Virus record (IMG/VR): IMGVR_UViG_3300006922_000005
DNA: 64,000 nt
Source of the DNA: a virus
Lineage: Duplodnaviria; Caudoviricetes
Direction: 5' to 3' (one strand)
Shown: positions 805 to 26,128 of the stretch, piece after piece
Numbering within the stretch: position 1 is the stretch's first letter
Layout: the number at the start of each line of letters is the position of its first letter
Position numbers and translations under genes: made by a program
The notes under the pieces: model-generated
Told to the model about the DNA's origin: nothing
The model's input: the letters and a program-made list of their open reading frames with translations, nothing else
Databases searched by the model: none

Positions 805-809
805 CACAT

Positions 810-853
810 ACGTTCAGACAATAGTCCGGAAGTAGCATAATGCGAAGGAACGC
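810..853 (+). ncRNA. glutamine riboswitch, glnA (glutamine-I) class, cis-regulatory
   Basis: CGTTC(811-815)/GAACG(848-852) P1; GAC-AATA-GTC P2; CGGAAGTA junction; GCA-TAA-TGC P3; GAAG E-loop strand; conserved C after P1; SD GGAGG at 871-875 and ATG at 881. Confidence 0.88.
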
Positions 854-880
854 ACCTAACTTTAACAAAAGGAGGGTGAA

Positions 881-23150: not shown

Positions 23151-23933
23151 TTATTCCTCTCTGCGTTCAATATCTTCTTCAACGCATAATTCTCCGTGTT
23201 GAACTTCTAGTACATGACACGGTTCTTGGAAAGGATTGTACCCTTGGTGCCAAACTTCCTTGTCAATATCATAACCTTTTGTTAAGTGTGGTAATGTAAC
23301 ATCACTTACATGGCCGTTATATTCTGTTTTAACTTTACAACACCCTTTAAGTACATACCACATCTCAGCACGTTTAAAATGCTTTTGCATTGATAGTTTT
23401 TGTCCTGGTGCAATAACAAGTTCTTTAACTTTTACACCTTTGCCGATTGTATACAAATCTCTATACCAACCCCATGTGCGTTCAACTTTAGGATGTTTCC
23501 ATTCTTCTAATATCCAACTACTTGAATTCTTTTTATTTTCTCCACCTATGCCAAACTTAAACTCAACATCAGGATCATCTCCATATGTAAGCATTTCGGG
23601 AATGTTTGTCCATGTTCGATCTCCGCCGTTAGCGAATATAATTTTATCACCTAAATCATTTAAGTTTTTTGTTTTGAAAATTGCACCACATGCACTATCG
23701 TCACTATCATCAAAGTCGATAACAACGTCTACCATATAGAATCTTTTTGTAATTTCAACACGTTCTTTAAGTGGCATAAAAGGTTGCCCTTTCTTGCGTG
23801 TTAGCCAATCATCTGAGTTAAGTCCTACCCAAAGTTCGTCGCCTAACTTCTTTGCTTCTTCTAAGTATGCTAAATGTCCACTGTGTATAGGATCAAAGCC
23901 GCCTGTTACTAGTACTATTGTTTTCTGTTTCAT
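23151..23933 (-). CDS. cytidylyltransferase-like (HxGH) domain fused to mannose-6-phosphate-isomerase-type cupin
   Basis: TGGFDPIHSGH, FANGGDR; C-terminal ERTWGWY...LSMQKHFKRAEMW. Confidence 0.88.
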   Translation of the reverse strand: MKQKTIVLVTGGFDPIHSGHLAYLEEAKKLGDELWVGLNSDDWLTRKKGQPFMPLKERVEITKRFYMVDVVIDFDDSDDSACGAIFKTKNLNDLGDKIIFANGGDRTWTNIPEMLTYGDDPDVEFKFGIGGENKKNSSSWILEEWKHPKVERTWGWYRDLYTIGKGVKVKELVIAPGQKLSMQKHFKRAEMWYVLKGCCKVKTEYNGHVSDVTLPHLTKGYDIDKEVWHQGYNPFQEPCHVLEVQHGELCVEEDIERREE

Positions 23934-23980
23934 AGTACTATTTATGTGCGTATATTATTGTGTAATTTTATTTGAAAGTC

Positions 23981-24006
23981 AAAAAAAAAGACTCCGAAGA
24001 GCCTTT
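23981..24006 (-). terminator. intrinsic terminator
   Basis: AAGGCTC-TTCG-GAGTCTT followed by a T run. Confidence 0.85.
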
Positions 24007-24013
24007 TAAAAAT

Positions 24014-24230
24014 ATAAGCAAAATAGGTAGGACTTGGGTACACCTACAAGCACGGACCGAAATACCATTTCTAAACCGTACAACCTGTCCCCGCGGGTTA
24101 GTGCGATGTGACTCAGCGTATTTCTACTACCAAGCCTGGGTACCACCCCTGGACAGTCAAGTTCGACTCTTTTGGTAGGAGCCTCTTCCTTGCACTATAA
24201 ACAAAAAGTAATTAATTTTTTGTTGCTTAT
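24014..24230 (-). ncRNA. candidate structured non-coding RNA of unrecognised family
   Basis: own promoter and terminator, no credible sense ORF, several stems with G-U pairs favouring the minus strand, terminal ATAAGCAA/TTGCTTAT complementarity. Confidence 0.6.
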
Positions 24231-24236
24231 GTAACT

Positions 24237-24265
24237 AATATAGCAAATAATACTATAAAAGTCAA
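24237..24265 (-). promoter_or_regulatory. sigma70-like promoter
   Basis: TTGACT-17 bp-TATATT. Confidence 0.75.
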
Positions 24266-24300: not shown

Positions 24301-24756
24301 TTATACGGAAGCGTCTTCCATACCTGCTACACGTAGTTTAACAATATTAGTAATTTGCCATTGTTTCATGTCAATACCTTTCATTACTCCTAACCACTTG
24401 TTACGTAGTAGAGCAAACTCGTTAATGATCTTTTCAAAGTCTACTACATCTGCTTCACCATCAACGTATTTTTCAACGTCACGACTGCTTAATGCTCTTT
24501 GATAGTTTTCTAAATATTGTTTAAAAAACTTTGATCTAGTTCTACGTAGTTCTATATTTAAATATTCTAGTACTGCCTCAATCTCTTGTAATTGTCCAAA
24601 ACGTTCTTCAACAACTCCTGGTAGGTTTGCGGCCTGCTTTTCTAAGTTGCCAAATAATCTTGTCTGCTTACGTGCTTCTTCAAGTTCGCCTTCATACCAC
24701 AGAATAGCCGGGGGTATGTTTGCAATATCTTGAGTAATTCTAGAATACCAATTCAT
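24301..24756 (-). CDS. uvsY: recombination mediator (UvsY-like)
   Basis: YVDGEADV...KQWQITNIVKLRVAG C-terminus; downstream of uvsX. Confidence 0.7.
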   Translation of the reverse strand: MNWYSRITQDIANIPPAILWYEGELEEARKQTRLFGNLEKQAANLPGVVEERFGQLQEIEAVLEYLNIELRRTRSKFFKQYLENYQRALSSRDVEKYVDGEADVVDFEKIINEFALLRNKWLGVMKGIDMKQWQITNIVKLRVAGMEDASV

Positions 24757-25026
24757 TTAGTTCCACTCATCATCATCACTGCTATACGGGTCTTCGTCCC
24801 AATTATCGCTATCTTCGTCCTTATACTTTTCACCTTGTAGGTCATTTACTGCTTCTCCTAAGTATGGATCTTCAGCACCTACGGCATAAAGTGTATCTTC
24901 GTCGATACCGTTATCTTGACACCATTTAACGTATTGCATTGCTAATTGTTCTTTGTTAGTCTTTGGGACATACTCCGAAAAGATATCCCAAAGATCAATC
25001 AGTTGGTCTTCACTCATTTCCGTCAC
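24757..25026 (-). CDS. hypothetical acidic protein
   Basis: 89-aa ORF in operon. Confidence 0.65.
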   Translation of the reverse strand: MTEMSEDQLIDLWDIFSEYVPKTNKEQLAMQYVKWCQDNGIDEDTLYAVGAEDPYLGEAVNDLQGEKYKDEDSDNWDEDPYSSDDDEWN

Positions 25027-26128
25027 TTATTTTTTCCTCAATTTTAACATTTTCTGATTCTACAACTTCATCTTCTATAGATGTTTCTGCTTCTTCGTAC
25101 TTATGTCTAATTTTAGAAAAGTCGTCCATCACGAGTTGTAATTTTTCACCAGTCCAGTCTTTACGGTAGTGTAAAATTTCCTCGTTCTTACTGTTAACGA
25201 ATTTAAGTCTGTTACCCTGTTGTGTAAGAAGTCCTTGTTTTTCAAACAAGTCTACTAATCCACTGTAAGGATCCATTCCTGTTTCATAAGGGATCTTTAC
25301 TTGTACGCCTTCAAAAGGTTTTGCATAACGTGTTTTCATTACCTTACATGCGGCTCTAATACCACGTACATCTGTTACCTTTTTGCCATCAGCATCTTCT
25401 TTTAGTTTTAGTTTTTTCATTGCTACAACAATTGAAGATGCATACACAAATCCTTGTCCTCCACTGATTTTATCATCAGGATCAAACATATCTTGTGATG
25501 CATACGTATGGTTAGTACATACCATACCTACATTATACGCACCAAACATGTTAACTGTATTACGTACAAGTGCTGTCAGTGCCTTAGGTTTTCTACCCAT
25601 ATCACCTTTCAAATCACCTTTACCAAACTGGTCAACATCTGTTGGTGTTAATAACATACCCAGTGAGTCAACAACAAACAATACCTTAGGTCTGTCTTCT
25701 GCGTCTACAGAATCATAGTCGTTTCTGTAGTCTTTCATAAACTCACTTATAGTTTTAGCAACATCATCAATCATTGACATTGACAGTCTAAGCAATTTGC
25801 CTTCGTCTGTATCAACGCCTAATGCTTGTAGCCACTTTTCATCAAGTGCATTCTCTGAGTCAATTAAAACTACAAAGATACCTTGATCTTGTGCCGCCTT
25901 TACAATGTTACCACTTGCAAAGTATGATTTACCTGCGCCGGATTCACCTGCAAACACTGTCACCTTACCTAGAGGAATTCCTTTATAGAAGTCCCCTGAG
26001 ATAAGATGATTAAGTGCGTAATTGCCGGTTGAAACCCAGTCAGTTGGATCGTTAAAACCTGTACCTAATCCTGTAATAGACTTGGTGAGGTTCTTACGAA
26101 ATTTACTAACGTCGAATGGTTTCGCCAT
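25010..26128 (-). CDS. uvsX: RecA-like recombinase (UvsX)
   Basis: AGESGAGKS, IDSENA, VVDSLG, SGGQG. Confidence 0.93.
   Translation of the reverse strand: MAKPFDVSKFRKNLTKSITGLGTGFNDPTDWVSTGNYALNHLISGDFYKGIPLGKVTVFAGESGAGKSYFASGNIVKAAQDQGIFVVLIDSENALDEKWLQALGVDTDEGKLLRLSMSMIDDVAKTISEFMKDYRNDYDSVDAEDRPKVLFVVDSLGMLLTPTDVDQFGKGDLKGDMGRKPKALTALVRNTVNMFGAYNVGMVCTNHTYASQDMFDPDDKISGGQGFVYASSIVVAMKKLKLKEDADGKKVTDVRGIRAACKVMKTRYAKPFEGVQVKIPYETGMDPYSGLVDLFEKQGLLTQQGNRLKFVNSKNEEILHYRKDWTGEKLQLVMDDFSKIRHKYEEAETSIEDEVVESENVKIEEKISDGNE

What the first reader, a model, noticed from the sequence alone, without database searches (positions are those of the whole stretch)
23981..24265. ORF-less, self-contained structured RNA unit upstream of the glycan island
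Seen on the minus strand: TTGACT-17-TATATT promoter, ~220 nt that are GC-richer than the flanks, and a UUCG-loop intrinsic terminator. The ends are complementary (ATAAGCAA/TTGCTTAT). Internal stems include AACAAAAA/TTTTTGTT, CTACCAA/TTGGTAG, CTGTCC/GGACAG, GTACGG/CCGTGC and GTAGG/CCTAC. GTACCCARG occurs twice, and the terminator arms GGCTC/GAGTC are duplicated near the 5' end. I recognise no family. Inference: either a trans-acting phage ncRNA, or an attenuator controlling early read-through into the glycosylation operon.
Basis: partly seen in the sequence, partly recalled or inferred. Interest (0 to 1): 0.8.

Follow-up and report, generated by a model that had tools for sequence, protein, structure and literature searches.

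The report
Stand-alone manA-family phage RNA gene
The flagged stretch is a real folded, non-coding RNA with its own promoter and terminator, but it belongs to the already catalogued "manA" RNA family of marine phages, and here it looks like a free-standing RNA gene, not a switch for the sugar gene next to it.

Summary
Window 24265-23978 (minus strand) carries a sigma70-type promoter, a 217-nt GC-richer folded core (24230-24014) and an intrinsic terminator.

It scores 46.8-50.0 bits, below the curated 55.2, so a default scan misses it. Homologues with the same architecture pass the cut-off: Pelagibacter phage Mosig 64 bits, and the nearest held record 56.3.

In 74 distinct viral-contig homologues, 42 of 68 base pairs show compensatory changes (0 of 500 shuffles reach this).
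- The promoter is conserved at a fixed place in 62 of 73 variants.
- A terminator follows in 46 of 70, using 33 different hairpins, and is usually followed by a fresh promoter.
- Neighbouring genes vary: UvsY lies upstream in only 5 of 71, and the sugar gene downstream in 4.
- No co-evolving antiterminator was found.

I therefore favour a free-standing early RNA over an attenuator. A 2026 preprint reports that manA RNAs form RNA-only cages in vitro. This RNA keeps complementary loops, a GNRA loop and a palindromic loop that would suit such assembly, which is untested here.

This scan has reached similar readings for manA-like RNAs in at least 15 other genomes.

The parts
24237..24265 (-). Sigma70-type promoter: -35 TTGACT (24265-24260), 17-nt spacer, TG at 24245-24244, -10 TATATT (24242-24237). 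The inferred start is near 24230-24232.
   Evidence: 10 of 12 matches, TG present. Conserved at a fixed distance in 62 of 73 distinct relatives, against 2.7% of random 100-nt pieces of the same loci. The start site is inferred, not measured.
24014..24230 (-). Folded core of the manA-family RNA (217 nt), running from the outer stem's 5' arm to its 3' arm.
   Evidence: Rfam RF01745 full-length match 24222-24017: 50.0 bits locally and 46.8 bits in the whole window. Covariation in 74 distinct homologues. The consensus-derived fold is -58.0 kcal/mol against an MFE of -61.2.
24223..24230 (-). Outer stem P0, 5' arm ATAAGCAA. It pairs with 24021-24014 (TTGCTTAT). This stem is not part of the Rfam model.
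   Evidence: 87% of cells paired, and 4 of 8 pairs show double changes.
24202..24222 (-). Hairpin P1 (CAAAAA/TTTTTG). Its loop holds the palindrome AATTAATT.
   Evidence: Covarying stem (covariation score 0.59). A 6-nt palindrome (TAATTA or TAGCTA) sits in this loop in 58 of 74 relatives.
24195..24199 (-). Closing stem P2, 5' arm TATAG. It pairs with CTATT at 24026-24022. This is an AU-rich replacement of the family consensus GGGAG/CUCCC.
   Evidence: Rfam alignment; pair counts.
24158..24192 (-). Hairpin P3 (CAAG/CTTG plus GGCTC/GAGTC) with loop CTACCAAAA, which holds the UACCA motif.
   Evidence: the inner stem is 100% paired and all 5 pairs show double changes. Loop.
24085..24156 (-). Three-hairpin subdomain closed by CTGTCC/GGACAG. 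Loops are GTGGTA, the GNRA tetraloop GAAA, and ACTAACCC.
   Evidence: the closing stem is 99.5% paired and all 6 pairs show double changes. GAAA or GAGA occurs in 62 of 74.
24050..24081 (-). Hairpin GTACGG/CCGTGC with an inner stem and the conserved loop ATGGTAT.
   Evidence: This loop covaries with the last hairpin's loop in one clade (TGGAAT with ATTCCA).
24027..24047 (-). Hairpin GTAGG/CCTAC with loop TGTACCCAAGT.
   Evidence: 100% paired.
23978..24007 (-). Intrinsic terminator: stem AAAAGGCTC/GAGTCTTTT, loop TTCG, and a T-run to about 23978. The predicted RNA is therefore about 250 nt.
   Evidence: 46 of 70 distinct relatives have a strict hairpin plus T-run starting 12-18 nt after the closing stem's 3' arm, using 33 different hairpin sequences.
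23954..23982 (-). Second promoter-like site, TTGACT-17-AATAAT, whose -35 box overlaps the terminator's T-tail. It is a composite terminator/promoter junction ahead of the next gene.
   Evidence: 10 of 12 matches. 42 of 46 relatives with a terminator have a -35-like box within 16 nt and/or TAAATA within 70 nt after it.
23151..23933 (-). Downstream neighbour, not part of the RNA: a 260-aa fusion of a cytidylyltransferase-like domain and a mannose-6-phosphate isomerase C-terminal cupin.
   Evidence: Pfam PF01467 and PF01050.
24301..24756 (-). Upstream neighbour, not part of the RNA: a UvsY-like recombination mediator.
   Evidence: PHROG 231.

Best explanation
This is a free-standing gene for a structured non-coding RNA of the manA family (Rfam RF01745), carried by an uncultured marine T4-type phage.

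Inferred from sequence:
- Host sigma70 RNA polymerase starts at the extended -10 promoter near 24230.
- It transcribes the 217-nt core and stops at the intrinsic terminator, giving an RNA of about 250 nt.

Shown by covariation:
- The RNA folds into the manA core: the P1 hairpin, a closing stem, the P3 hairpin, a three-hairpin subdomain and two further hairpins.
- It also forms an extra outer stem that joins its two ends.

Inferred function: the RNA works through its own tertiary or quaternary structure, not by controlling the neighbouring nucleotidyltransferase-isomerase gene. That gene has its own promoter-like sites. The most likely mode of action, taken from a 2026 cryo-EM preprint on other manA RNAs, is self-association through loop-loop contacts into closed oligomers. 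The cellular role of such particles is unknown.
For: Family:
- Full-length RF01745 match, E 7e-12 locally and 7e-9 in the whole window.
- Homologues of the same build score above the curated cut-off: Mosig 64 bits, the nearest held record 56.3, and 6 of 13 sampled relatives.

Structure:
- 34 of 48 RNAalifold pairs are compensatory.
- In my own count, 68 pairs are 92% paired, 42 show double changes, and 0 of 500 shuffles reach this. Slid partners give only 33-48% paired.

Own transcription unit:
- The promoter is conserved at a fixed place in 62 of 73 variants, against 2.7% of controls.
- A terminator follows in 46 of 70, using 33 different hairpins.
- A fresh promoter-like element follows in 42 of 46.

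Not tied to a gene:
- There are 21 downstream ORF clusters, 9 of them with two or more members. Those annotated include gp32, rubrerythrin, peroxiredoxin, radical SAM, DNA ligase and a TonB receptor.
- There are at least 8 upstream contexts. The capsid gene gp23 lies upstream in 20, and UvsY in only 5 of 71.
- Contigs of relatives in RNA libraries diverge from the window at 23977 and at 24227/24242, which are the borders of the unit.

No expression platform: terminator arms pair with their own RNA no better than with foreign ones (-7.77 against -7.71 kcal/mol, p = 0.74).

Assembly:
- The preprint 10.64898/2026.07.01.735769 reports 60-mer, decamer and octamer manA assemblies. They are held by L5-L7', L8-L9' and L3-L8' kissing loops and a GNRA L6 contact.
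- By my own numbering of the hairpins, the window RNA has UACCA (L3), GUGGUA (L5), GAAA (L6), ACUAACCC (L7), AUGGUAU (L8) and UACCCAAG (L9), with 3-5 complementary base pairs between these loops.
- L8 and L9 covary in one clade.
- The P1 loop holds a palindrome in 58 of 74 variants.
Against: - No transcript ends were measured. The metatranscriptome data are contigs only, and cannot show starts, ends, strand or level.
- The window's own Rfam score is below the curated cut-off.
- The window shows the classical manA context, a mannose-type gene just downstream.
- Some relatives, and the canonical P-SSM2 copy, have no terminator and lie 16-30 nt before a start codon, as a leader would.
- The oligomer evidence is in vitro, from a preprint, and on other family members.
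- My matching of loop numbers to the preprint's is an inference, since its figures are not held.
- L3 and L5 are invariant, L5 by my search pattern, so they cannot covary.
- AU-rich palindromes arise fairly easily by chance.
- The relatives were gathered with a sequence pattern, which biases the set towards this subtype.
Confidence: 0.55

Rival explanations
1. Cis-acting riboswitch or attenuator. This is the catalogued reading of manA and the reader's second option. The RNA would bind a metabolite, perhaps a sugar or nucleotide-sugar, and set how much early transcription reads through the terminator into the nucleotidyltransferase-isomerase gene and the glycan genes behind it.
For: - Weinberg et al. 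2010 rated manA as certainly cis-regulatory and probably a riboswitch, and listed mannose/fructose genes among its neighbours (PMC2864571).
- The window has exactly such a neighbour, with a terminator between RNA and gene.
- Mosig-type relatives and P-SSM2 place the RNA 16-30 nt before a start codon.
- The window's P3 arms repeat the terminator arms, so an alternative pairing is possible in this one sequence.
Against: - The arm repeat is not shared by relatives, and there is no co-evolving antiterminator.
- Most relatives have a fresh promoter-like element after the terminator, and so does the window.
- Neighbouring genes are functionally unrelated.
- No ligand has been reported since 2010 in the library I searched.
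Confidence: 0.22
2. Transcript-end or cassette element. The structured RNA plus terminator would mainly serve as a protective 3' end for the upstream uvsX-uvsY message. Alternatively it is part of a mobile terminator/promoter cassette of the PeSL type that shuffles genes in T4-like phages, with no function as an RNA product.
For: - No terminator lies between uvsY (which ends at 24301) and 24007.
- RNA-library contigs bridge uvsY and the 5' part of the RNA.
- The terminator's T-tail overlaps a -35 box, as in the composite terminator/promoter motifs of T4-like phages (PMC4122927).
- The unit sits in many different contexts.
Against: - A 217-nt fold with 42 covarying pairs, conserved loops and its own strong promoter is far more than a 3' end or a recombination site needs.
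- PeSLs are described as small motifs.
- UvsY is the upstream gene in only 5 of 71 variants.
Confidence: 0.1
3. It encodes a small protein: the 46-aa GTG frame at 24146-24006 or another short frame.
For: An open 46-codon frame exists.
Against: - The frame is 7 to 64 codons long in relatives.
- Substitutions follow base-pairing, not codon, constraints.
Confidence: 0.02

Closest known systems
manA RNA motif (Rfam RF01745; Weinberg et al. 2010, PMC2864571; Rfam update in PMC7779021)
   Same: - It aligns over all 192 model positions with every helix of the model.
- It shares the GUG after the closing stem, the GGUGGU-type loop and ACC-containing loops.
- It is found in marine T4-type phages.
- A sigma70-like promoter lies directly upstream, as in the canonical copies of P-SSM4 (184 bits) and P-SSM2 (182 bits).
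- A mannose-type gene lies downstream in the window.
   Different: - Score is 46.8-50.0 bits, below the curated 55.2.
- The closing stem is AU-rich (UAUAG/CUAUU) where the consensus is GGGAG/CUCCC.
- An extra outer stem P0 joins the 5' and 3' ends. I saw no such pairing by eye in the two canonical copies.
- The P1 loop carries a 6-nt palindrome.
- The GNRA hairpin is longer.
- It is usually closed by its own terminator and followed by a new promoter, so it behaves as a gene and not as the 5' leader it is catalogued as.
Cage- and ring-forming manA RNAs (Ren et al. 2026, bioRxiv 10.64898/2026.07.01.735769)
   Same: It is the same Rfam family. The window RNA has loops that could make the reported contacts (L5-L7', L8-L9', L3-L8') and a GNRA tetraloop at the place I equate with L6.
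   Different: None of the studied constructs is this RNA or, as far as the text tells, this subtype. Assembly of this RNA is untested. The work is in vitro, and no in vivo role is given in the parts I searched.
Unannotated manA RNA of Pelagibacter phage Mosig (MT647606, 108164-108371)
   Same: It is the nearest named homologue: 75% identity over 225 nt, with fully compensatory changes in the CTGTCC/GGACAG stem and a swap in the outer stem. It scores 64 bits, above the cut-off.
   Different: Mosig has no terminator. Its RNA ends about 20 nt before a rubrerythrin gene. The -35 region is not alignable.
PeSL composite terminator/promoter motifs of T4-like phages (PMC2839356, PMC4122927)
   Same: A stem-loop terminator whose T-tail overlaps an early-type -35 box follows the RNA (23978-24007 and 23954-23982). 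The unit sits in many genomic contexts.
   Different: PeSLs are described as small motifs that flank protein genes. Here the 'cargo' between promoter and terminator is a 217-nt structured RNA. Recombination at these sites was not tested.

Membership tests
manA RNA (Rfam RF01745) | Covariance-model score at or above the curated gathering score (55.2 bits) | tested here: not met
   The window scores 50.0 bits locally and 46.8 bits in the whole window, and a default gathering scan misses it. E-values are still 7e-12 and 7e-9. Homologues of the same subtype score 45.3-64 bits: Mosig, the nearest record and 6 of 13 sampled relatives are above the cut-off. The cut-off therefore runs through this subtype.
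manA RNA (Rfam RF01745) | Complete helix architecture of the model, supported by covariation | tested here: met
   The match covers 1-192 of 192 positions. All model helices are present. 92% of cells are paired, 42 of 68 pairs show double changes, and 0 of 500 shuffles reach this.
manA RNA (Rfam RF01745) | Conserved unpaired nucleotides of the consensus | tested here: inconclusive
   Shared: GUG after the closing stem, GGUGGU in the first loop of the subdomain, and ACC in later loops. Different: the junction reads CAAGGAAGA where the consensus has ACUGAAUAA, and the closing stem differs. Some positions in my alignment are invariant only because the search pattern demanded them.
manA RNA (Rfam RF01745) | Occurrence in marine T4-type phages and marine metagenomes | tested here: met
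   At least 120 IMG/VR contigs hold it, as does Mosig. UvsX, UvsY and gp32 lie next to it in the window. Among 185,579 cellular species genomes, only one MAG holds it, on two contigs.
Riboswitch / transcription attenuator | Expression platform: terminator or ribosome-binding site in alternative pairing with the aptamer | tested here: not met
   Swap test on 44 terminators: own RNA -7.77 against foreign RNAs -7.71 kcal/mol, Wilcoxon p = 0.74, and none falls in the best 5%. An AU-only alternative pairing common to all members would escape this test.
Riboswitch / transcription attenuator | Consistent association with genes of one pathway | tested here: not met
   Downstream ORFs fall into 21 clusters. 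Annotated ones include gp32, rubrerythrin, peroxiredoxin, radical SAM, DNA ligase, a TonB receptor and the nucleotidyltransferase-isomerase fusion.
Riboswitch / transcription attenuator | Specific ligand binding | not testable with these tools
   This needs in-line probing or ITC. No ligand was found in the literature I searched.
Self-assembling RNA (manA cages, Ren et al. 2026) | Complementary loops for intermolecular kissing, plus a GNRA loop | tested here: met
   In the window, L3-L8 gives 5 bp (UACCA/UGGUA), L8-L9 gives 4 bp, L5-L7 gives 3 bp, and the GNRA loop is GAAA. L8-L9 covary in one clade, and own pairs beat all 200 permutations. The loop numbering is my inference.
Self-assembling RNA (manA cages, Ren et al. 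2026) | Formation of discrete homo-oligomers | not testable with these tools
   This needs a native gel, SEC-MALS or cryo-EM of the transcript.

The most novel reading that the evidence does not exclude
In marine T4-type phages, manA RNA is not a gene leader but an early-expressed, free-standing RNA that assembles into RNA-only closed particles inside infected cells. In this subtype, the palindromic P1 loop (UAAUUA or UAGCUA) would supply the two-fold contact that joins pentamers. A T=1 shell of 60 subunits has 30 two-fold axes, which is one self-complementary loop per subunit. That would make it a natural, phage-encoded RNA cage with a cellular role such as sequestering a host factor or a small molecule.
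Probability: 0.2. Interest if true: 0.85.

Novelty: new member of a known kind. Interest (0 to 1): 0.42.

Why it matters
manA has been catalogued since 2010 as a probable riboswitch, with no ligand reported in the literature I searched. This locus and about 80 relatives show three things for a large marine-phage subtype:
- The RNA carries its own conserved promoter and, in two thirds of variants, its own terminator.
- It moves between unrelated gene neighbourhoods.
- It shows no expression platform.

That points to a free-standing RNA gene. It also gives in vivo-style, comparative backing to the recent in vitro finding that manA RNAs build cages.

There is a practical point as well. About half of this subtype scores below Rfam's cut-off, and it is unannotated in Pelagibacter phage Mosig. 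A pelagimyophage survey reported no riboswitches (PMC7029224). Phage annotations are therefore missing this RNA.

The core 24230-24014 is a concrete construct for assembly tests.

Tried and rejected
- Default Rfam scan: it listed only the glutamine riboswitch. The manA match appeared only with E-value thresholds.
- tRNA/tmRNA scan: none found.
- Single-sequence folding: not significant on the minus strand (z = -1.5), and z = -2.4 on the plus strand. This is uninformative on its own.
- Other weak Rfam hits (STnc130, UPD-PK, PhotoRC-I; E 0.6-9) were rejected as chance.
- The window's own assembly is not held.
One search was spoiled by one empty sequence and was redone.
- Small-ORF reading: rejected.
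- CTACCAA/TTGGTAG helix: not supported by relatives.
- Metatranscriptome contigs:
  - RNA-library contigs cover 24022-24233. Their word depths are 10-88, against 2-5 for the downstream gene.
  - These are contigs that pool related phages and may include DNA. I do not use them as evidence of level, ends or strand. A bin without cover means nothing.
- Host assignment is unresolved:
  - The RNA's best DNA match is Pelagibacter phage Mosig.
  - UvsX is closest (62-66%) to jumbo phages of Sinorhizobium, Agrobacterium, Vibrio and Xanthomonas.
  - The sugar gene's N-terminal half is closest to cyanophages.
- Not run: the count of structure pairs and build_rna_model. I computed the same measures in scripts to avoid typing long structure strings.
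- Pattern matches L018 and L048 look like a different architecture and were left out of the alignment.

Full report
**What is there.** All coordinates are on the minus strand.
- The intergenic space lies between a UvsY-like gene (24756-24301; PHROG 231) and a 260-aa cytidylyltransferase / mannose-6-phosphate-isomerase-cupin fusion (23933-23151; Pfam).
- It holds a sigma70-type promoter, TTGACT-17-TATATT, with an extended -10 TG (24265-24237).
- Next comes a stretch with G+C of 0.44-0.54, against 0.18-0.36 in the flanks.
- It ends with a 9-bp terminator hairpin, loop TTCG, and a T-run (24007-23986).
- A second promoter-like site, TTGACT-17-AATAAT (23982-23954), overlaps the terminator's T-tail.

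**Which family.**
- A default Rfam scan reports only a glutamine riboswitch elsewhere in the window.
- With E-value thresholds, the stretch 24222-24017 aligns to all 192 positions of manA RNA (RF01745). It scores 50.0 bits (E 7e-12) in a local search and 46.8 bits (E 7e-9) over the whole window. The curated cut-off is 55.2.
- The only named phage with similar DNA is Pelagibacter phage Mosig, at 75% identity over 225 nt. The region is unannotated there. Its copy scores 64 bits.
- The nearest held virus record scores 56.3 bits.
- Thirteen sampled relatives score 45.3-61.9 bits, all full length, and six are above the cut-off.
- The window RNA is therefore a member of a manA subtype that straddles Rfam's threshold.
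- Canonical copies in P-SSM4 and P-SSM2 score 184 and 182 bits.

**Relatives and structure.**
- A pattern taken from two conserved blocks found at least 120 IMG/VR contigs. This gave 80 distinct 295-nt extracts, which I aligned with the window (A2).
- RNAalifold finds compensatory changes in 34 of 48 pairs.
Over 74 distinct rows, the 68 pairs are 92% paired, and 42 show changes on both sides.
- None of 500 column shuffles reaches any of the five measures. Sliding the partners by 1-3 columns drops pairing to 33-48%.
- The outer stem ATAAGCAA/TTGCTTAT (24230-24223 with 24021-24014) is not in the Rfam model. It has a few independent swaps (AU to UA in the Mosig clade, CG to UA in another). I saw no such pairing by eye in the two canonical cyanophage copies.
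- The consensus-derived fold of 24230-24014 costs -58.0 kcal/mol, against an MFE of -61.2.
- The internal 46-codon frame is not conserved.
- Caveat: the two pattern blocks are invariant by construction.

**Is it a leader or a gene?** Five results bear on this.
1. *Promoter.* 62 of 73 distinct variants have at least 10 of 12 matches to the sigma70 consensus, with the -10 box ending 38-41 nt before the TAGTG block, and TG is present in 52. Only 2.7% of random 100-nt pieces of the same loci do as well. The two canonical cyanophage copies have TTGACA-16/17-TATAAT at the same place. The inferred start falls at the first base or two of the outer stem.
2. *Terminator.* 46 of 70 variants with enough flank have a strict hairpin plus T-run starting 12-18 nt after the closing stem, built from 33 different hairpin sequences. 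In 42 of the 46, a -35-like box follows within 16 nt and/or TAAATA within 70 nt.
3. *Neighbours.*
   - Downstream ORFs fall into 21 clusters. They include an unknown 130-190-aa protein (21 variants), gp32 (6), the nucleotidyltransferase-isomerase fusion (4) and rubrerythrin (3).
   - The rest include peroxiredoxin (3), radical SAM, DNA ligase and a TonB-dependent receptor.
   - Upstream, the major capsid gene gp23 is commonest (20). UvsY occurs in only 5 of 71.
4. *Antiterminator.* Terminator 5' arms pair with their own RNA no better than with foreign RNAs (-7.77 against -7.71 kcal/mol, p = 0.74).
5. *Borders.* In marine RNA-library contigs, relatives' contigs part from the window at 23977 and at 24227/24242, which are the borders of the unit. 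This is weak evidence, because contigs cannot show transcript ends.

Together these favour a self-contained RNA gene that is moved around as a unit. The composite terminator/promoter junction after it resembles the PeSL motifs that shuffle modules in T4-like phages (PMC4122927).

Against this reading:
- Mosig-type variants and P-SSM2 lack a terminator and sit 16-30 nt before a start codon.
- The window itself has the classical mannose-type neighbour that gave the family its name (PMC2864571).

**How it may work.**
- No ligand or regulatory test for manA turned up in the literature I searched. A 2023 cyanophage paper still calls its role unverified (PMC9964418).
- A 2026 preprint (10.64898/2026.07.01.735769) reports by cryo-EM that manA RNAs form closed homo-oligomers in vitro: a 60-subunit T=1 cage, decamers and octamers.
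- These are built from pentamers held by L5-L7', L8-L9' or L3-L8' kissing loops and a GNRA L6 contact.
- I numbered the window's hairpins in order. That gives L3 UACCA, L5 GUGGUA, L6 GAAA, L7 ACUAACCC, L8 AUGGUAU and L9 UACCCAAG.
- These loops give L3-L8 5 bp, L8-L9 4 bp and L5-L7 3 bp. GAAA or GAGA occurs in 62 of 74 relatives.
- L8 and L9 change together in one clade (UGGAAU with AUUCCA, 6-7 bp). Own L8-L9 pairs beat all 200 permutations.
- The P1 loop carries a 6-nt palindrome in 58 of 74 variants, either UAAUUA or UAGCUA. These differ by a double change that keeps self-complementarity.
- These features fit self-assembly but do not prove it. The loop numbering is my inference, AU-rich palindromes are not rare, and the same pairs could be intramolecular.

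**Distribution.** The same pattern found the RNA in only one of 185,579 cellular species genomes. That is a Neomarinimicrobiota MAG, on two long contigs that also carry a freshwater-2 RNA, and they are probably mis-binned phage DNA. The host of the window's phage is unresolved.

**Verdict.**
- It is a new member of a known family, manA, in a subtype that default annotation misses.
- The most likely reading is a free-standing early RNA acting through its own fold, possibly by self-assembly (0.55). A riboswitch or attenuator is less likely (0.22).
- Earlier notes of this scan reached similar readings for manA-like RNAs in at least 15 other genomes. I found the family and the preprint independently before reading those notes.

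Noticed in passing
window 809-856 (+): Glutamine riboswitch aptamer (RF01739), 46.9 bits against a cut-off of 35. It is the only Rfam match above its gathering score in the window.
   Followed up: no
L003 1882-2861 (-); L036 3043-3685 (+); L074 156-814 (-); L027 114-791 (-); also L015, L042: In several relatives the manA-type RNA is the middle member of a same-strand RNA island. A glutamine riboswitch lies about 250-300 nt upstream. A freshwater-2 RNA (RF02980, 48-77 bits) lies 70-500 nt downstream, in some cases right after the terminator and a GATAAATAC late-type motif. The window has no freshwater-2 match.
   Followed up: partly
L001 4021-4228 (MT647606 108164-108371): Pelagibacter phage Mosig carries a manA RNA that scores above Rfam's cut-off (64 bits) just before its rubrerythrin gene, but the record has no feature there. 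A pelagimyophage survey reported finding no riboswitch-type RNAs with Riboswitch Scanner (PMC7029224).
   Followed up: partly
L132 1085-1258 (AY940168 164884-165057): In P-SSM4 the annotated hypothetical protein PSSM4_169.1 lies almost wholly inside the canonical manA RNA (164829-165014, 184 bits). It is probably a spurious ORF call.
   Followed up: no
L139 5503-5850 (-); L142 6890-7237 (+): Two long contigs (153 kb and 335 kb) of a 'Candidatus Neomarinimicrobiota' MAG from the Red Sea each carry the manA-type RNA plus a freshwater-2 RNA, with identical scores. They are likely phage DNA binned into the MAG, or a duplicated region.
   Followed up: no
window 25010-26128 (-): The UvsX/RecA-like recombinase is most similar (62-66% identity) to those of jumbo phages of Sinorhizobium, Agrobacterium, Vibrio and Xanthomonas, not to cyanophage or pelagiphage isolates. 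The host of this phage is therefore open.
   Followed up: no
window 23939-23945 (-): A late-promoter-like heptamer, ATAAATA, sits only 5 nt before the ATG of the nucleotidyltransferase-isomerase gene. If used, the message would be nearly leaderless. No Shine-Dalgarno-like sequence is visible.
   Followed up: no
L018 5147-5207 (+); L048 2976-3036 (+): Two contigs match the search pattern with a longer spacer and a different sequence between the blocks. This may be another manA-like subtype or a chance match.
   Followed up: no
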